This document shows positions 650-24,398 of a DNA stretch of 39,726 nt, in pieces. Numbering within the stretch: position 1 is the stretch's first letter; each line of letters opens with the position of its first letter. The stretch is from a virus, in UHGV virus genome UHGV-0339228; one strand, given 5' to 3'. The position numbers were made by a program, and so were the translations under genes. A model generated the notes under the pieces. The model was not told the DNA's origin and searched no databases. It saw only the letters and a list, made by a program, of their open reading frames with translations.

Positions 650-2056
650 ATGGCAGGAACGGGGAGAATCTATGTCACGGCAGTCCGTGGCGTAGGAGAT
701 GTAAACCTTACGCATCAGTACGATGTAGATCTCCGGTTTGATATTGCGTTTGACTGGGGCGGATACAATTATGGCGGTGCACCATACAGCATGAGCTGTG
801 ACGGGCAGAACACCTCCGGAAGCGCAACATTTGCAGTTGGAAGCGGTGGAGGGAACTGGATATGGACAAACATTGGCGGAACTAAGACATTCCGTATTAC
901 GATGCCGACAAGCGGACAGCCCAAGAACATAGGATTTTCCGCAACAATTAACACGGGAATCAACCCGTCCACAATCTCAGCAAGCGGAAGTTACGCACTC
1001 TCGGCTATCACGTGGGAACATACCGTATCTTACAATGCAAACGGAGGAACGGGCGCGCCGGGCAGTCAAAAGAAAATATATGGGTCAAACTTAACCCTAT
1101 CCTCTGCACGCCCTACACGAGACGGGTATGTATTTATGGGTTGGGCAACGTCATCTGCCGGAGAGGTGTCGTACATGCCGGGGTCTACTTACGGCACAGA
1201 TGTGGATATCACCTTGTATGCAGTCTGGCAGATCGCATACATCAAACCCACAATTACCGGACTGACTGCATTGCGGTGCGACTCAAGCGGAACTCCAAAG
1301 AGTGATGGTACATACATTAAAGTCACTGGGAGCTGGCAAGTAGACCGGACGTTAAATAGTTCCAACAAGGCAACCAGTGTCAGGATAGATTATCAGGAGA
1401 CTGCTTCCGGGAGTCCGGTGAAAGCAAGCGAAACATACCCAAACACGACAAGCGGAAAGATTTCTCAAGTAATCGGGAATGGGAAAATATCCACGGGGAG
1501 TGTGTACTTTGTTATCGTTACAATCACGGACTTAAACGGCAGCAAACAAGAAGAGGTGATTGTTCCGGCACAGTTCCGAGCGTTGGATGTTGCAAATAAA
1601 GGAAGAAGTATTGCTTTCGGCGGAACAGCAAGTGACAGAGAAGAGGGATATGATTTCTATCAAGACGTGAGGTTTCACGGAAAGTTATTACTGGGAGATC
1701 AAGAATTGATGGGGATCAAGGAACATGATTCCGGACAGGTGAGAGGGCCGTACTCCAATGTAAACAGCAGTAATCACGTGCAGGTGTGGTTGTATAAGAT
1801 CGGCAAGATCGTACACTGCAAAATTGAGATGCTGGCGCAGTTTCCGAACAGCGGGTATTTCAATGATTTTGACGAGGTGGCCATCCCGGAAGAATTCCGG
1901 CCGAAATATCACGTATTTTGCGCGTGCCCGGAAGTAGTCGCAGGGACGATCATTGGAACTGGAAGATATCGTATAGGAGGCAAGATTTCTCTGGATGTGG
2001 AAAAGAAAGATTATGCAGAGCGGACGATCTGTACATCTTGGATCGCAGCAAGTTAG
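650..2056 (+). CDS. Tail-fibre / receptor-binding candidate with one Listeria-Bacteroides (Flg_new-type) repeat
   Basis: 468 aa. RBS GGAGGG lies 6 nt upstream. The segment SYNANGGTGAPG..PTRDGYVFMGWATS..YMPGSTY..DVDITLYAVW matches the Flg_new / Listeria-Bacteroides repeat consensus. The gene sits between Tal and the lysis genes. Confidence 0.5.
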   Translation: MAGTGRIYVTAVRGVGDVNLTHQYDVDLRFDIAFDWGGYNYGGAPYSMSCDGQNTSGSATFAVGSGGGNWIWTNIGGTKTFRITMPTSGQPKNIGFSATINTGINPSTISASGSYALSAITWEHTVSYNANGGTGAPGSQKKIYGSNLTLSSARPTRDGYVFMGWATSSAGEVSYMPGSTYGTDVDITLYAVWQIAYIKPTITGLTALRCDSSGTPKSDGTYIKVTGSWQVDRTLNSSNKATSVRIDYQETASGSPVKASETYPNTTSGKISQVIGNGKISTGSVYFVIVTITDLNGSKQEEVIVPAQFRALDVANKGRSIAFGGTASDREEGYDFYQDVRFHGKLLLGDQELMGIKEHDSGQVRGPYSNVNSSNHVQVWLYKIGKIVHCKIEMLAQFPNSGYFNDFDEVAIPEEFRPKYHVFCACPEVVAGTIIGTGRYRIGGKISLDVEKKDYAERTICTSWIAAS

Positions 2057-3586: not shown

Positions 3587-5272
3587 ATGGGTGACGAGAA
3601 CAAAGAAGCGATTATGCCAAGATCGGCAGACTTCTCTGGATGGACTGGTTATCAAACAATGGACGGAAACTCCAATTGTCGTGCATGGGCTGATTGGGAA
3701 ACAACTCGTGTATTTCGAAATGGACAAGCTGGGTGGGATGTTAGAATTATTTTAAAAGCGAACAAGACAACATCATCACCTACGTACGGTACTGGGAATA
3801 CGCAAGTCGGTGCTCATCAAACAAATTCTTCTGTAGACACAAAGTATATGACTATCGTGCAGAGCGAAACAACATTTAGAGATGAGACTTTGTTTGTTCC
3901 AGCGGAAGCAGGCGCAGACATACCATTAGCAGCATATGCTAATATCCATATACCGAATGTAGTAAGTAAGAGAATCCAGTTTACAGTTACAGCCAAAAGA
4001 AATCTTTGGTACGTTTATTTTGATGCAAACGGCGGATCTAGTGCTCCTAGTACGCTGAAAAGACATTGGGGCGAAGTTGTATATATTCCAGCTACGTTGC
4101 CAACAAGATATGGTTATACATTTAATGGATGGACAAAGACACAAGGCTCGTCCAATATAAATTACAGTCCTGGAGATCCAATAGGCGATGATTCCGATGT
4201 CACTTTATATGCGGTATGGAGTCAAAATGTTGTAAAAACATGGAGTATTACATATAACGCGAACGGTGGATCTAACGCCCCAGCAAAGCAGACAGCGAAT
4301 GTTGGTCAGTCCATTACGATTACTTACTCAAAACCGACACGCAGTGGATATACCTTTTTAGGCTGGTCTACTTGGTCTGGAGCAACAGAACCCGAAGCAA
4401 TGTTTACACCGGGATATTCTTATACATCTGATTACGATTTAACTTTATATGCAGTGTGGAGGAAAAACCAAACCACACAATATTCTTTATCATTTAGTCT
4501 TCAAGGTGGAAATGGTACGTTCAATCCATTGTACGGGGAATATGGGAATCGGGTGCAAATTCCATATACAAAACCAACGAAAACTGGATATACATTCCTT
4601 GGATGGGCAACTTATTCAGGAGGAAGTGCTTCGTATCAGCCAGGTGAATATTACACTTTATATGGAAATTCCACTTTATATGCTACATGGCAGAAAGAAC
4701 AAACTACTCAATATTGCACAATAACCTTCAATGCAAACGGAGGGTCTGGTGCACCATCAAGTCAACAGAAAGTCGTTGGAGAAACCACTTATATCCCATA
4801 CACTAAGCCGACTCGTTCTGGATATACTTTTCTGGGATGGTCTACATCATCGTGGGCTACATCTGCAGATTATCAACCAGGGTCGACTTATACCCCATAT
4901 GGGAATATGACATTTTACGCTGTTTGGAAACAAAATGTTGTCAAGACATGGAGCATTATATACAATGCAAATGGTGGAACGAATGCGCCAGAAAAACAAA
5001 CTGCAAATGTAGGTCAATCCATTACGATTTCATATTCTAAACCGACACGCAATGGCTATACATTTCTTGGGTGGTCTACGTGGAGCGGTTCTACTGAGCC
5101 AGAACTTGCATATACACCGGGACATTCATATATGTCAGACTATGATATAACTTTATATGCAGTTTGGGAAGAAGATAAAAGAATGTATCTTGGATATGAT
5201 CGTATTAGAAAAATTTATATCGGAAACAGACAGGTAACAGCGGCATACTTAGGAACAGCAAAAATATGGTAA
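3587..5272 (+). CDS. Large tail-fibre / adhesin-like protein with six tandem Listeria-Bacteroides (Flg_new-type) repeats
   Basis: 561 aa with a GGGGG RBS. Six ~75-aa units of the form xYNANGGs.AP..Q...G....I.Y.KPTR.GYTFLGW.T.......Y.PG..Y....D.TLYAVW. Units 2 and 6 are near-identical at the protein level (about 80% nt identity at 4228-4461 versus 4933-5166). Confidence 0.6.
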   Translation: MGDENKEAIMPRSADFSGWTGYQTMDGNSNCRAWADWETTRVFRNGQAGWDVRIILKANKTTSSPTYGTGNTQVGAHQTNSSVDTKYMTIVQSETTFRDETLFVPAEAGADIPLAAYANIHIPNVVSKRIQFTVTAKRNLWYVYFDANGGSSAPSTLKRHWGEVVYIPATLPTRYGYTFNGWTKTQGSSNINYSPGDPIGDDSDVTLYAVWSQNVVKTWSITYNANGGSNAPAKQTANVGQSITITYSKPTRSGYTFLGWSTWSGATEPEAMFTPGYSYTSDYDLTLYAVWRKNQTTQYSLSFSLQGGNGTFNPLYGEYGNRVQIPYTKPTKTGYTFLGWATYSGGSASYQPGEYYTLYGNSTLYATWQKEQTTQYCTITFNANGGSGAPSSQQKVVGETTYIPYTKPTRSGYTFLGWSTSSWATSADYQPGSTYTPYGNMTFYAVWKQNVVKTWSIIYNANGGTNAPEKQTANVGQSITISYSKPTRNGYTFLGWSTWSGSTEPELAYTPGHSYMSDYDITLYAVWEEDKRMYLGYDRIRKIYIGNRQVTAAYLGTAKIW

Positions 5273-5948: not shown

Positions 5949-6134
5949 ATGAAAACATCAGAACTTGTTAAAATACTCAAGAAGAATGGCTGTTTTTTCG
6001 TGGAACATGGTAAAGAGCATGATAAGTGGCACAGCGATTTAACCGGAAAGGATGTGCGAATCCCAAGACATAAAAGTAAGGAAATCCCGACCGGAACAGC
6101 GGACAGAATACTAAAGGATGTTGGGCTGAAATAA
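5949..6134 (+). CDS. hicA: HicA-family mRNA interferase toxin
   Basis: 61 aa. MKTSELVKILKKNGCFFVEHGKEHDKWH...IPRHK.KEIPTGTADRILKDVGL matches the HicA (YcfA-like) family pattern. RBS AAAGGAGGAAATA. Confidence 0.75.
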   Translation: MKTSELVKILKKNGCFFVEHGKEHDKWHSDLTGKDVRIPRHKSKEIPTGTADRILKDVGLK

Positions 6135-6174: not shown

Positions 6175-6576
6175 ATGGCAAAATACGTATATCCAGCAGT
6201 GTTTACACCAGAGGAAGATGGGAAATATTCGGTGTTTTTTCCAGATTTAGATGGGTGCTATACTTGCGGAGATGATCTGCAGGATGCAATTGTAATGGCG
6301 GAGGATGTGCTTGCATTTTATCTTTATGATGAAGAAGTAGCACAGAACGAAATACCAAAATCATCTACTACTGCAGAAATTGAGTTAAAAGATGGAGAAT
6401 TTGTGAATTATATCGCATGCGATACCATTGAATACGCAAAAATGCATAATAATCGGGCGGTAAAGAAAACACTGACAATACCCGAATGGTTGAACGAAGC
6501 TGCGACGAGAGCAGGAGTGAATTATTCGCAGGTGCTTCAGGAAGCGCTAATGAGTAAATTGAATATAAGTAGATAA
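6175..6576 (+). CDS. hicB: HicB-family antitoxin (UPF0150 N-domain plus C-terminal ribbon-helix-helix (RHH)-like DNA-binding tail)
   Basis: 133 aa. The N-terminus MAKYVYPAVFTPEEDGKYSVFFPDLDGCYTCGDDLQDAI is typical of HicB. It follows hicA directly, with an AAGGAGG RBS. Confidence 0.75.
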   Translation: MAKYVYPAVFTPEEDGKYSVFFPDLDGCYTCGDDLQDAIVMAEDVLAFYLYDEEVAQNEIPKSSTTAEIELKDGEFVNYIACDTIEYAKMHNNRAVKKTLTIPEWLNEAATRAGVNYSQVLQEALMSKLNISR

Positions 6577-6735: not shown

Positions 6736-7472
6736 TGAGTATTTGTAGAGGAATTGCCGGCAGGAGAGGTAAAAATCCTGTCGGTATTTTTATTCATAAT
6801 GGGGCAGACGGTCAGAATGCTACGACAGCGTATTACAGGAATTACTTACAAAACGCAAACTTGGAAAACGGATTTGCCCATTATTATGTGTGCAGCGATG
6901 GAATCTTACAGGCGGAAGATGACGAAAATTGCGCTTGGCACTGCGGATACTTGAACGGAAATCTCAATTTCTTGAGTATAGAGGTCTGCCAGAGCATGGG
7001 GGACTTGGATACCTTTAAGGCGAACGAAGAAAAAGCATTGCAGTTAGCAGCGCAGAAATGTAAGCAGTACGGAATTACACCAAGTGCAAGCACGATTATG
7101 TTACATCAGGAGGTGTTTGCAACAGCTTGTCCGCATAGATCAGTGGAGATTCACGGCGGAGCAGCAGCAACGAAAGCATATTTTATTAAGCGTATCAGCG
7201 AACTGATGAATGGAAATCAAGTCGCAACAGAAGATCAGGAAGGAGAAGAGACTATGCAGTGTATGTTTACAGTAGAAGGAAAAGGATGTGTTTATTGGAT
7301 GCATGATGGAGTTGTGACAGCTTTAGCACATCCAGACGAGTTAAAAATCATTCAGCAGGTCTATAAGGATAACTTTGGGCATGATATGCCGTGCTACAGT
7401 TGGGGCAAAAATGCACCATGGCATGTGAGACTGATGAACCCATTGTATCGTGAACCGGTTAAATCTATTTAA
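6735..7472 (+). CDS. N-acetylmuramoyl-L-alanine amidase endolysin (Amidase_2 / PGRP fold)
   Basis: 245 aa. The N-terminal domain carries the Amidase_2 hallmarks (..GIFIHNGADG.., AHYYV, CAWHCG..N..LSIEVCQ, ATACPH). The C-terminal half is a putative cell-wall-binding domain. It follows the holin and TA module. Confidence 0.8.
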   Translation: MSICRGIAGRRGKNPVGIFIHNGADGQNATTAYYRNYLQNANLENGFAHYYVCSDGILQAEDDENCAWHCGYLNGNLNFLSIEVCQSMGDLDTFKANEEKALQLAAQKCKQYGITPSASTIMLHQEVFATACPHRSVEIHGGAAATKAYFIKRISELMNGNQVATEDQEGEETMQCMFTVEGKGCVYWMHDGVVTALAHPDELKIIQQVYKDNFGHDMPCYSWGKNAPWHVRLMNPLYREPVKSI

Positions 7473-7479
7473 TAAAAAT

Positions 7480-7520
7480 CCCCTCGGAGATCGCTCTCTG
7501 AGGGGAATAATATTATTTTC
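7480..7520 (+). terminator. Hairpin terminator after the endolysin
   Basis: CCCCTCGGAGA..TCTCTGAGGGG stem followed by AATAATATTATTTT. Confidence 0.45.
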
Positions 7521-7602
7521 TATCAAAATGTATTTTTAATAAATTCAATTCAAACCCCTCTGTGCTATAATATATGTAGTCAATACAAGAGGGGGAACAA
7601 GT

Positions 7603-7782
7603 ATGGAATATCAGATCTACGAATCTTACGATACGTTTTTATTATATCAGGAATTTATGGAGATACCCGGAAATACTTTTAAGTTCCGGTTGCCAGAAGG
7701 GATGATCCTGACAACCGAAATGATGCACACCTTTTTACGGGCTGCGTATATGAGTGTTGGACGGATGGAGTTGCCGTCCTGA
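7603..7782 (+). CDS. Hypothetical 59-aa protein with its own promoter (moron candidate)
   Basis: RBS AGAGGGGGA lies 7 nt upstream of the ATG. Upstream there is an extended -10 TGcTATAAT (7563-7571) and a -35-like TTCAAT. It sits between the lysis genes and the recombinase. It falls below the ORF-track cutoff. Confidence 0.3.
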   Translation: MEYQIYESYDTFLLYQEFMEIPGNTFKFRLPEGMILTTEMMHTFLRAAYMSVGRMELPS

Positions 7783-7799
7783 GAATATTGTATCATTTA

Positions 7800-7849
7800 T
7801 TTTGTACTAAGTATACATCCCCAAATGGGGCTAAACACTTAGTACAAAA
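7800..7849. other. Candidate attP for the adjacent serine recombinase (50-bp imperfect inverted repeat with a central AA)
   Basis: TTTTGTACTAAGT (7800-7812) and ACTTAGTACAAAA (7837-7849) are perfect 13-bp inverted arms. The inner CCCCA / TGGGG arms flank a central AA (7824-7825). The site lies 5 bp beyond the recombinase stop. No U-run follows on either strand, so it is not a canonical terminator. Confidence 0.4.
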
Positions 7850-7853
7850 CAGA

Positions 7854-9248
7854 TTATAAAAAATCTACAGCTTTAATCGTATTGTCATCATTTAGGTAAA
7901 TCTCCTGTATCGTGGATCTCCAAAAAGAACGCTTGTTTTCAGGAGACAGCGAATCATACATTTGCCGAAAGTCAGTTTCTAATAGTTCTTCCACATAGTG
8001 TAAGCTTCTCGTCTCTTCCTCCTCTGGAAAAGCAGCAGAAGCGGAATATTCTTCTTCCAATCTCTGGTACTCCTTATCGTAGTAATCGAAAGAAATCCTC
8101 CCTTTTTGAAATAACAAATTTAATCGTTCCATTTCTTTTCTCAGCTTTTCCGGATCTTTCGTTTTCTTTTGCTTTTTTAGCTCTTCACTGATCTGGTTGC
8201 TGCGGACTTTATACTTTTCGTATTCTCTTTCGAGATTTTCGAGCAAATATTTTTCGACAAGGTTCTGGCTTACCCTATGCCTATACGTGCAAATATGATC
8301 AATAAGCGCTCTGTTGCAACGGTAGTAGCAGTATGTTCTTTTTTCTCCGGTTTTACGGTTGATAATTGATGAGCATCCGGTGCCAACTAATTTCTGTCCG
8401 CACACAGGACAGCGCATCAAACCCGTAAACAGGTATATTCTACCAGACGGCGTGTTTTTAATATTTCTTTTCGATATAATTTGCATCTCATTCCATTCTT
8501 TTTCTGACAGGTATGCCGGACAATAAGGATACCCTCTGTACGTACCTTTATAAAATTCGCTGGACAACATTGTACGTAACATGCCATAACTAAAATCAAC
8601 CCCATAGGTTTCCTGCATGTACCGTACAGCACCTTTTTTGGAGTTATGGCTTTTAAAGTATTTAAAAAAATCCTCCACCATGTGTTCTGTTTCTGGATCT
8701 TTAACCATGCATTTCTTCCCGTCCACGACACCTGTTTTATATCCAAAAGGCATATTTGCATCTCCGAATATTAACTTCCTTTGTCTTATAGATGCTTCGT
8801 TGACAAATTTAATTCGTTCGGATGTGGTGTCTACCTCGTTTTGCCCAATCGACAGCACTACATTTAATTGCAAGCGTCCATCCCGCGTCTCCATGTTTAT
8901 ACCAGGCTCGGATACAGATATCCAGCGCACCCCATGCTCATCTAGCACATCTTGCACCTTATAAAAATCAGACAGGTTGCGAAACCATCTATCCAGCCGC
9001 CAGAAGAGTATTACATCGATTCTATCCTTTTTCACATCCTCTATAAGGGCGTGTATGGCTTTTCTTTTCTTCAGTTCTTTTCTGGCAGTCTTTCCTTCAT
9101 CCGCATAGACGCCTACTATAGACATGTTGTTGTCTGTTGCGTATTGCTCCAAACATTCTTTCTGGGCTTGTAAAGACTTACCATGTACACTCTGCTCAAA
9201 TGTGGATACTCGGATATATATGGCGCACCGTAGTATTTTTTCTGGCAT
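7854..9248 (-). CDS. Large serine recombinase (phage integrase)
   Basis: 464 aa. The resolvase-type catalytic N-domain (CAIYIRVSTFEQ.. with the Ser nucleophile) is followed by a recombinase domain, a zinc ribbon (CPVCG...CYYRC) and a C-terminal coiled-coil. This is the standard large serine integrase architecture. Confidence 0.85.
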   Translation of the reverse strand: MPEKILRCAIYIRVSTFEQSVHGKSLQAQKECLEQYATDNNMSIVGVYADEGKTARKELKKRKAIHALIEDVKKDRIDVILFWRLDRWFRNLSDFYKVQDVLDEHGVRWISVSEPGINMETRDGRLQLNVVLSIGQNEVDTTSERIKFVNEASIRQRKLIFGDANMPFGYKTGVVDGKKCMVKDPETEHMVEDFFKYFKSHNSKKGAVRYMQETYGVDFSYGMLRTMLSSEFYKGTYRGYPYCPAYLSEKEWNEMQIISKRNIKNTPSGRIYLFTGLMRCPVCGQKLVGTGCSSIINRKTGEKRTYCYYRCNRALIDHICTYRHRVSQNLVEKYLLENLEREYEKYKVRSNQISEELKKQKKTKDPEKLRKEMERLNLLFQKGRISFDYYDKEYQRLEEEYSASAAFPEEEETRSLHYVEELLETDFRQMYDSLSPENKRSFWRSTIQEIYLNDDNTIKAVDFL

Positions 9249-23393: not shown

Positions 23394-23590
23394 TCGTGAT
23401 GTAAGATGCAGGCTGCACAGCTGAGGTCTGTTCTGGGAGTGCACACCGGACTTACATTGCAAATGGTACCAAAACGCAGATATCCGCAGATCTGCAAAAC
23501 AAACAAATATAGATTCAGCAATCTATATTTAGTGTAATCAGCGTACCCGAGTGCGGATAGGGTAAAGGGTGTCAATAAAAGGCATCCTAC

Positions 23591-23769: not shown

Positions 23770-23828
23770 TAAATTCTTAGCATCCAGTTGATGGGTGCTT
23801 TTATTATGTTTTAAAGGTGGTGAGTCCT

Positions 23829-24398
23829 ATGACAGAAAAACAGAAAATATTTGCAGATGAGTACTTGATTGATCTAAATGCCACACGGGCTTACCGCGTC
23901 GCATATCCAAGCGTAAAGAAAGAAGAGTCAGCAGCAGTAAATGGAAGTAAGTTGCTAAGAAATGCTAAGGTTGCAGAATATATTACCGAAAGAATGGAAG
24001 AGCGGCAGAAGCGGACGGAGATCACGCAGGATCGAGTTTTAAATGAACTGGCTGCCATTGCTTTTTCCAAGGCTTCAGACTACGCGAAAGTAGTTGAGAA
24101 ACAGGCTACAGCAGAAGTAGATGGAAATATTATTCCGCTCGTAGGAGAAGACGGAGAACCGATTCTGTATCGGACCGTAGAATTGGAGCTTACAGATAAC
24201 CTTACTGAGGAACAGCAGCGAGCCCTCGGAACGATTAAAAAGGGGCGCGATGGATTGGAACAGAAGCCCTGCGACAAGGTAAAGGCGCTCGAGCTTCTCG
24301 GCAGGCATTTAGGTATGTGGAATGACAAGCTGGATGTAGCAGGAGATATGGACATGAAGATTGTAGTAGACTATGGTGATGAAGATGAAGGAAGTTAA
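23829..24398 (+). CDS. Terminase small subunit (Terminase_2 / P27 family)
   Basis: MTEKQKIFADEYLIDLNATRAYRVAYPSVKKEESAAVNGSKLLRNAKVAEYI matches the Terminase_2 N-terminal DNA-binding domain. RBS AAAGGTGGTGA. The track start at 23817 is GTG. Confidence 0.75.
   Translation: MTEKQKIFADEYLIDLNATRAYRVAYPSVKKEESAAVNGSKLLRNAKVAEYITERMEERQKRTEITQDRVLNELAAIAFSKASDYAKVVEKQATAEVDGNIIPLVGEDGEPILYRTVELELTDNLTEEQQRALGTIKKGRDGLEQKPCDKVKALELLGRHLGMWNDKLDVAGDMDMKIVVDYGDEDEGS

What the first reader, a model, noticed from the sequence alone, without database searches (positions are those of the whole stretch)
7800..7849. Candidate attP: 50-bp imperfect palindrome with a central AA, 5 bp from the serine integrase stop
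The outer arms TTTTGTACTAAGT / ACTTAGTACAAAA are perfect 13-bp inverted repeats. The inner arms CCCCA / TGGGG flank a central AA dinucleotide at 7824-7825, exactly at the centre of the 50-bp element. The intervening 6 bp per half-site are not symmetric. Size, quasi-symmetry and a central crossover dinucleotide are the defining features of large-serine-recombinase att sites. Neither strand has a downstream U-tract, so it is not a terminator.
Basis: partly seen in the sequence, partly recalled or inferred. Interest (0 to 1): 0.55.

Follow-up and report, generated by a model that had tools for sequence, protein, structure and literature searches.

The report
Phage attachment site (attP) confirmed
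The 50-bp palindrome next to the integrase gene is the site where this gut-bacterial virus cuts and joins its DNA into the host chromosome, an ordinary large-serine-integrase attachment site that a 2022 catalogue already lists for a close relative.

Summary
Window 7800-7849 is a 50-bp quasi-palindrome with 13-bp perfect outer arms, CCCCA/TGGGG inner arms and a central AA at 7824-7825. It lies 4 nt beyond the stop codon of a 464-aa large serine integrase (7854-9248, minus strand). The window is the circular form of a Ruminococcus (Mediterraneibacter) gnavus RG-TP1-like temperate phage.

In prophage contigs whose integrases are 92-95% identical, each palindrome arm is joined to host DNA and the break lies at the palindrome centre. 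Joining the two host flanks predicts an empty attB (…TTTGTCGGCTCCA-AA-TCCTGTGACGAG…). A 21-nt core of it occurs in 62 human-gut metagenome contigs (all but one or two with the expected flanks), inside an NMT1/SsuA-like binding-protein gene. In the window's lineage attP and attB share CCAAAT, so the exchange falls within 7821-7826. In a lineage whose integrase is 71% identical, with the same site layout and the same target gene, attP and attB share only the central dinucleotide. That fixes the crossover there.

Durrant et al. 2022 (Supplementary file 3, cluster321) already list this attP/attB pair from computation. It is correct but ordinary, and no experiment has tested it.

The parts
7800..7849 (.). 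attP: 50-bp quasi-palindromic attachment site of the phage's large serine integrase
   Evidence: Sequence. Inverted repeat. Both arms are found joined to host DNA in prophage contigs.
7800..7823 (.). P half-site (integrase-distal arm). The motif TTGTACTAA (7802-7810) and CCA (7821-7823) are conserved across relatives. Positions 7811 and 7817-7820 vary between phages.
   Evidence: Alignment of 7 attP variants. Distal junctions L099-L102 carry exactly this arm fused to host CCTGTGACGAG.
7824..7825 (.). Central AA (TT on the integrase strand), the inferred crossover dinucleotide
   Evidence: It is the symmetry centre. In the window's lineage the exchange is bounded to 7821-7826 (L014 and L099). 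In the P0078-like lineage attP CCA-TT-TGG and attB GGT-TT-CGG share only TT.
7826..7849 (.). P' half-site (integrase-proximal arm), with TGG (7826-7828) and TTAGTACAA (7839-7847) conserved
   Evidence: It is identical in prophage junctions L009-L012, L014 and L017, where host DNA replaces everything to its left.
7854..9248 (-). Large serine integrase, 464 aa. The putative nucleophile is Ser15 in the motif YIRVSTFEQ.
   Evidence: Pfam Resolvase 5e-27 and Zn_ribbon_recom 1e-7. PHROG 95 integrase. Translation. It is 96.6% identical to the RG-TP1 integrase and 92-95% identical to the copies in lysogens.

Best explanation
Window 7800-7849 is the attP site of the phage's large serine integrase, encoded 4 nt away at 7854-9248 on the minus strand.

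Shown here: the two arms are the points at which phage DNA is joined to host DNA in lysogens. The partner site attB lies inside an NMT1/SsuA-like lipoprotein binding-protein gene of the gut host, at the codons for T-G-F-G-A-D-K. Integration splits that gene.

Inferred from how this enzyme family is known to work: an integrase dimer binds the two half-sites and recognises the conserved TTGTACTAA and CCA elements in each arm. It pairs with a dimer bound to attB. All four strands are cut with a 2-nt stagger at the central AA/TT, one pair of subunits rotates by 180 degrees, and the ends are rejoined. This gives an integrase-proximal and an integrase-distal hybrid site. The non-palindromic AA sets the orientation of insertion.
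For: (1) The integrase has the resolvase catalytic domain and the zinc ribbon and matches the PHROG integrase family.
(2) Phage-form contigs carry the intact palindrome between the lysis genes and int.
(3) Prophage contigs with integrases 92-95% identical have host…GTCGGCTCCAAAT|GGGGCTAAACACTTAGTACAAAA-int (L009-L012, L014, L017). They also have lysis-…GTACTAAGTATACATCCCCAAAT|CCTGTGACGAG…host (L099-L102; the RG-TP1-type arm is in L021-L035). One isolate-derived genome (IMG 640963057) has both junctions (L014 and L099).
(4) A 21-nt core of the joined host flanks, TGTCGGCTCCAAATCCTGTGA, occurs in 62 human-gut metagenome contigs. All but one or two have the expected flanks on both sides.
(5) The target gene is NMT1/SsuA-like.
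(6) Phages with integrases 79% and 71% identical sit in the same gene motif in other hosts. For the 71% lineage all three forms were recovered: attP …GTTCCA-TT-TGGAGTT…, proximal junction …GTTCCA-TT-CGGAGCC… and distal junction …GACTGGT-TT-TGGAGTT…. Only TT is shared between attP and attB. The register is the same as in the window: stop codon, 4 nt, a 24-nt arm, then TT.
(7) Durrant et al. 2022 (PMC10083194, Supplementary file 3, cluster321) independently predicted the same attB and the RG-TP1-type attP.
Against: No recombination assay exists. No lysogen of this exact genome was found, and the exact integrase protein is on record only in phage-form contigs. In the window's own lineage the junctions bound the exchange only to CCAAAT (7821-7826). 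The assignment to AA rests on symmetry, on homology with the 71% lineage, and on the general rule that natural crossover dinucleotides are non-palindromic. Two scans of species-representative genomes found neither the attB nor its left flank, so the host species is inferred from RG-TP1's recorded host and from gut metagenomes.
Confidence: 0.93

Rival explanations
1. The palindrome is a bidirectional transcription terminator or an RNA-stabilising hairpin between the convergent int gene and the 59-codon ORF 7603-7782, and is not a recombination site.
For: It lies between convergent ORFs. As RNA it folds into a strong hairpin on both strands (-23.4 and -29.7 kcal/mol, z = -6.8 and -7.7).
Against: No U-tract follows on either strand and the scan returns no terminator-like site. 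A covariation test on 7 attP variants is no better than shuffles (286 of 500 reach the observed value). The junction and empty-site data show that it is the recombination site. A secondary RNA role in the circular form is not excluded.
Confidence: 0.04
2. It is a chance palindrome or an operator for another DNA-binding protein, and the true attP lies elsewhere in the genome.
For: Short inverted repeats are common. Perfect 10-bp-arm repeats are expected about 1.6 times per window.
Against: A 13-bp-arm repeat is expected 0.023 times per window, and the 13-mer occurs nowhere else in the window. Phage-form and prophage-form sequences diverge at the palindrome centre (within a few bases) on both sides in dozens of independent contigs.
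Confidence: 0.01
3. It is attP, but the staggered cut is at AT (7825-7826) rather than at AA (7824-7825).
For: Junctions in the window's own lineage allow any dinucleotide within CCAAAT. One odd contig (L013) would narrow this only to AAT.
Against: AT is palindromic and would remove the polarity of the site. The arms are symmetric about AA. In the homologous P0078-like site, in the same register, only TT is shared between attP and attB.
Confidence: 0.02

Closest known systems
Durrant et al. 2022 LSR catalogue, cluster321 (NZ_NIHO01000002.1:114402-115799), computationally predicted attB/attP pair (PMC10083194, Supplementary file 3)
   Same: The integrase is very similar along the listed sequence (it begins MQEKILRCAIYIRVSTFEQ…, against MPEKILRCAIYIRVSTFEQ… in the window). 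The attB is identical (…GTCGGCTCCAAATCCTGTGACGAG…). The attP is the same except in the distal arm.
   Different: The window's distal arm differs at three positions (G instead of T at 7811, AT instead of TG at 7817-7818), which makes the palindrome more perfect. The catalogue entry is a prediction. It is not in that paper's list of experimentally characterised recombinases (file 4).
Characterised large serine integrase attP sites (phiC31, Bxb1, TP901-1, Listeria A118/LI integrase)
   Same: A site of about 50 bp, two imperfectly symmetric half-sites around a non-palindromic 2-bp crossover, very little identity with attB, and a position next to int. The closest solved catalytic domains are 3guv and the TP901-1 integrase 3bvp.
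   Different: No detectable sequence similarity of the site itself. The 13-bp outer arms are unusually perfect. The site starts only 4 nt after the int stop codon. Assigning the inner and outer motifs to the recombinase domain and the zinc-ribbon domain is inference from the LI integrase-attP model (PMC3783163) and was not tested.
Gene-splitting prophages with serine integrases (A118-like phage in Listeria comK, SPbeta in Bacillus spsM); recalled from general knowledge, not tested here
   Same: Integration interrupts a host coding sequence. Here it is the NMT1/SsuA-like binding-protein gene, and precise excision would restore it.
   Different: There is no evidence here that excision is used as a regulatory switch.
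attP of R. gnavus phage phiRgPS6 (Buttimer et al. 2023, PMC10072058)
   Same: Same host species group, and a related lysis module next to int.
   Different: That site is a 21-bp identical core in an intergenic region. It is a different integrase and a different site. The phiRg integrase genes align with the window's int only in short stretches or not at all.

Membership tests
attP of a large serine recombinase (LSR) | The cognate recombinase has an N-terminal resolvase-type catalytic domain and a C-terminal zinc-ribbon domain with a coiled coil | tested here: met
   PF00239 at 5e-27 and PF13408 at 1e-7. PHROG 95 integrase at 2.7e-100. The weak GvpG match at residues 362-401 lies in a K/E-rich helical stretch that fits the coiled coil (inference). 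The Pfam 'Recombinase' domain PF07508 was not reported at E<=0.001 for this protein, but is on record for the relatives P0014 and P0104.
attP of a large serine recombinase (LSR) | An imperfect inverted repeat of about 40-50 bp around a central non-palindromic dinucleotide | tested here: met
   The same architecture is found in a lineage whose integrase is 71% identical (15-bp perfect outer arms).
attP of a large serine recombinase (LSR) | Prophage-host junctions fall at the centre of the site, and each hybrid site carries one phage half-site | tested here: met
   Both junctions occur in one isolate-derived genome (L014 and L099) and in single contigs of the related lineage (L122+L124, L120+L126).
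attP of a large serine recombinase (LSR) | An unoccupied attB exists that equals the two host flanks joined at the crossover | tested here: met
   A 21-nt core of the predicted attB is found in 62 metagenome contigs. All but one or two have the expected flanks on both sides.
attP of a large serine recombinase (LSR) | attP and attB need to share only the 2-bp crossover, with no long common core and no arm-type sites | tested here: met
   In the P0078-like lineage only TT is shared. In the window's lineage 6 bp (CCAAAT) are shared with attB.
attP of a large serine recombinase (LSR) | The integrase recombines attP with attB unidirectionally, with a 2-nt staggered cleavage | not testable with these tools
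   This needs an in vitro or in vivo recombination assay.
Intrinsic (Rho-independent) terminator | A G+C-rich stem-loop followed directly by a U-tract | tested here: not met
   Hairpins are predicted, but there is no U-tract and no site is returned by the scan.
Tyrosine-integrase attP (lambda type) | A tyrosine recombinase, an identical core shared with attB, and flanking arm-type sites | tested here: not met
   The integrase is of the serine type. In the related lineage the shared core is only 2 bp.

The most novel reading that the evidence does not exclude
Besides being attP, the palindrome may act as a 3' hairpin on int mRNA that depends on the integration state. It starts 4 nt after the int stop codon, so int transcripts made from circular phage DNA would end in a hairpin of about -30 kcal/mol. 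In the prophage that hairpin is split, and int transcription would run into the co-oriented 3' fragment of the host NMT1-like gene. This would be a control of int expression analogous to lambda sib retroregulation. Separately, splitting and restoring the binding-protein gene could act as an excision-dependent switch. Neither idea has any direct support here.
Probability: 0.1. Interest if true: 0.45.

Novelty: already known. Interest (0 to 1): 0.2.

Why it matters
It settles where this group of Ruminococcus gnavus serine-integrase phages integrates. A 2026 survey of 29 R. gnavus phages, which places RG-TP1 in its cluster D, states that integration sites were not identified (PMC13435783). The target is a conserved T-G-F-G-A-D-K-coding stretch of an NMT1/SsuA-like binding-protein gene. 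Relatives whose integrases are 71-79% identical use the same target in other hosts. The result gives a defined attP/attB pair of about 50 bp that could be tested as a recombination tool or used to engineer R. gnavus. As biology it is a textbook case and brings no new principle.

Tried and rejected
- An exact look-up of the window's integrase gave only phage-form contigs, so no junction. The look-up of P0002 gave only a 1.6-kb contig, although that contig does hold a proximal junction.
- Two scans of species-representative genomes, one for the predicted attB and one for its left flank, found nothing.
- The hairpin covariation test on 7 attP variants was uninformative. Most pairs never vary, and 286 of 500 shuffles reach the observed value. 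Symmetric protein half-sites predict the same pattern.
- L013 shows a different host flank right after AA (…GAACATGGAA|TGGGG…). Only 19-26 nt are available and they do not resemble attB. I treated it as an unverified secondary site or a chimera and did not rely on it.
- I looked for the outer attP motif in attB shifted by 5 bp, as in the LI integrase model, by eye. I found no convincing match, so I make no claim.
- Buttimer et al. 2023 describe an attP for phiRgPS6, but it belongs to a different integrase and site.

Full report
**Observation.** Window 7800-7849 reads TTTTGTACTAAGT-ATACAT-CCCCA-AA-TGGGG-CTAAAC-ACTTAGTACAAAA. The repeat finder reports the same inverted repeat with a 2-nt gap at 7824-7825. 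The 13-mer occurs only at these two places in the window, against 0.04 expected. It is the only perfect inverted repeat with arms of at least 13 nt and a spacer of at most 40 nt in the window, and 0.023 are expected per window (7 of 300 Markov simulations). The site lies in a 71-bp gap between a 59-codon ORF (7603-7782, plus strand) and ORF 7854-9248 (minus strand). That ORF's stop codon is 4 nt from the palindrome.

**Context.** ORF 7854-9248 encodes a 464-aa protein with Resolvase and Zn_ribbon_recom domains. It matches PHROG 95 'integrase'. Its sequence begins MPEKILRCAIYIRVSTFEQ, with the usual catalytic-serine motif. An amidase endolysin, a HicA/HicB pair and a holin lie to its left. A helix-turn-helix repressor-like gene and early genes lie to its right.

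The exact integrase is found on a 39,781-nt metagenome scaffold with the same gene order. That fits a circular phage genome. The nearest deposited phage is Ruminococcus phage RG-TP1, induced from Mediterraneibacter gnavus. Its integrase is 96.6% identical.

**Mapping the junctions.** I scanned IMG/VR for each arm of the palindrome.
- The integrase-proximal arm (CTAAACACTTAGTACAAAACAG) occurs in two settings. One is the intact palindrome. The other is preceded by non-phage DNA, …AGTCATCGTTTTGTCGGCTCCAAAT|GGGGCTAAAC… (L009-L012, L014, L017).
- The distal arm likewise occurs intact, or followed by …CCAAAT|CCTGTGACGAGTTCCAGTTCAATGCCC… (L021-L035).
- The window's own distal-arm variant (GTACTAAGTATACATCCCCAAAT) is joined to the same host sequence in L099-L102.
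- One isolate-derived IMG entry (taxon 640963057) has both junctions (L014 and L099).
- The integrases in these lysogens are 91.8-95.3% identical to the window's.

**The empty site.** Joining the two host flanks predicts the attB …CATCGTTTTGTCGGCTCCAAATCCTGTGACGAGTTCCAG…. A 21-nt core of it is present in 62 human-gut metagenome contigs. All but one or two have the expected flanks on both sides. It lies in a lipoprotein gene of the NMT1/THI5 (SsuA-like) binding-protein family, at the codons for T-G-F-G-A-D-K. Integration therefore splits this gene. The upstream fragment ends …GFGAV* in the RG-TP1-type junction (read directly from the sequence).

**Where the strands are exchanged.** In IMG 640963057 the proximal junction carries the host T at window position 7820 and the distal junction carries the phage C. 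With the divergence after 7826, this bounds the exchange to CCAAAT, 7821-7826.

Relatives give a sharper answer. Integrases 79% (P0011) and 71% (P0078) identical are also followed directly by the 3' part of an NMT1-family gene in other hosts. For the P0078-like phage I recovered all three forms:
- attP: GTCTTGTACTAACTATACTGTTCCA-TT-TGGAGTTAGCTAGTTAGTACAAGAC. It has 15-bp perfect outer arms and the same register as the window (stop codon, 4 nt, a 24-nt arm, then TT).
- Proximal junction: …GTTCCA-TT-CGGAGCCGACAAAACT.
- Distal junction: …CTCGTGACTGGT-TT-TGGAGTTAGC.

Here attP (A-TT-T) and attB (T-TT-C) share only TT, so the exchange is at the central dinucleotide. Two contigs carry both junctions (L122+L124 and L120+L126). 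By homology and symmetry the window's crossover is AA at 7824-7825. This last step is inference.

**What is conserved.** Across seven attP variants of the near lineage, TTGTACTAA/TTAGTACAA and CCA/TGG are invariant. The six bases between them, and positions 7811 and 7820, vary. The same motifs recur in the more distant P' arms. This is what two binding sites for one protein would look like.

A hairpin covariation test does not separate the protein-site and RNA-hairpin readings. The RNA would fold strongly, but there is no U-tract and no terminator call. I rank a terminator as a minor rival and a secondary RNA role as a low-probability extra.

**Mechanism.** The steps shown are the site, its two half-sites, the junctions, the attB and the target gene. 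The steps inferred from established knowledge of large serine integrases (for example PMC3783163, listed) are these: a dimer binds each site, the two pair up, all four strands are cut with a 2-nt stagger, subunits rotate and the ends are rejoined. Directionality would be set by the coiled coil and by an excision factor that was not identified here.

**Comparison with what is known.** Durrant et al. 2022 (PMC10083194) list, in Supplementary file 3, cluster321 (NZ_NIHO01000002.1:114402-115799; MQEKILRCAIYIRVSTFEQ…). The entry has the same attB and the RG-TP1-type attP. It is not among their experimentally characterised enzymes (file 4). A 2026 survey of R. gnavus phages, which places RG-TP1 in its cluster D, says integration sites were not identified (PMC13435783). 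The attP described by Buttimer et al. 2023 belongs to a different integrase.

The feature is therefore already catalogued by computation. The window carries an allelic variant with a more perfect palindrome.

**Verdict.** My confidence is about 0.93 that this is attP and about 0.85-0.9 that AA at 7824-7825 is the crossover. The kind of feature is ordinary and interest is low. Its practical value is a defined attP/attB pair for R. gnavus phages.

Noticed in passing
window 7603-7782 (+), with TGCTATAAT at about 7562-7570: A 59-codon ORF sits between the endolysin and attP. It has its own extended -10-like element and a strong ribosome-binding site (AGAGGGGGAAC). It is conserved in RG-TP1 (gp41) and in relatives, and has no Pfam or PHROG match. 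In a lysogen it would lie at the very end of the prophage, next to the host junction, as lysogenic-conversion 'morons' often do.
   Followed up: partly
window 5949-6134 (+) and 6175-6576 (+): A HicA-like toxin (PHROG 353) and a HicB-like antitoxin (PF15919) are embedded in the lysis module between the holin and the endolysin.
   Followed up: partly
L006 2560-2730, compared with L007 4675-4730: A phage with a 90%-identical integrase (P0005) occurs in phage form (L007). It also occurs integrated at a different host site (L006): …CCGTACAAAGCCCTGTTTTCTCCAAAT|GGGG…, inside a small gene near acetyltransferase and citrate synthase genes. By an ungapped comparison by eye, its host arm matches the NMT1 attB arm at 11 of 22 positions, so it may be a secondary attB. 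The intact site was not recovered.
   Followed up: partly
L013 10193-10218 (IMGVR_UViG_3300045988_007480): The integrase-proximal arm is joined right after AA to unrelated sequence (ATCCGGCAGGCGAACATGG). Only 19-26 nt are available. It could be an off-target integration or an assembly chimera.
   Followed up: no
L017 and L019 (IMGVR_UViG_3300045988_017335): The same 35.7-kb contig starts with a host-phage junction and ends with an intact attP. This looks like an assembly from a mixed population of integrated and excised phage, which would imply spontaneous excision in that sample.
   Followed up: no
window 7470-7515: A strong hairpin (AAAAATCCCCTCGGAGA…TCTCTGAGGGGAATAAT, -23 kcal/mol, z = -5.7) lies directly after the endolysin stop codon. 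It is probably the terminator of the lysis operon, although the simple scan did not call it.
   Followed up: partly
window 23505-23530: This is the only other perfect inverted repeat in the window with arms of at least 11 nt (4-nt spacer). It lies in the gap upstream of the ORF starting at 23817 (the large packaging-region ORFs begin at 24373).
   Followed up: no
window 650-2056 and 3587-5272 (+): Two large tail-region proteins carry Listeria-Bacteroides repeat domains (Flg_new, 2e-64 for 3587-5272). They are probably receptor-binding proteins.
   Followed up: no
Genome-contig collection: Neither the attB nor its 26-nt left flank was found in any species-representative genome. Yet a 21-nt core of the attB occurs in dozens of gut metagenome contigs and the left flank in the prophage contigs, and RG-TP1's recorded host is M. 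gnavus. The representative genome may differ at this locus or be masked there.
   Followed up: no
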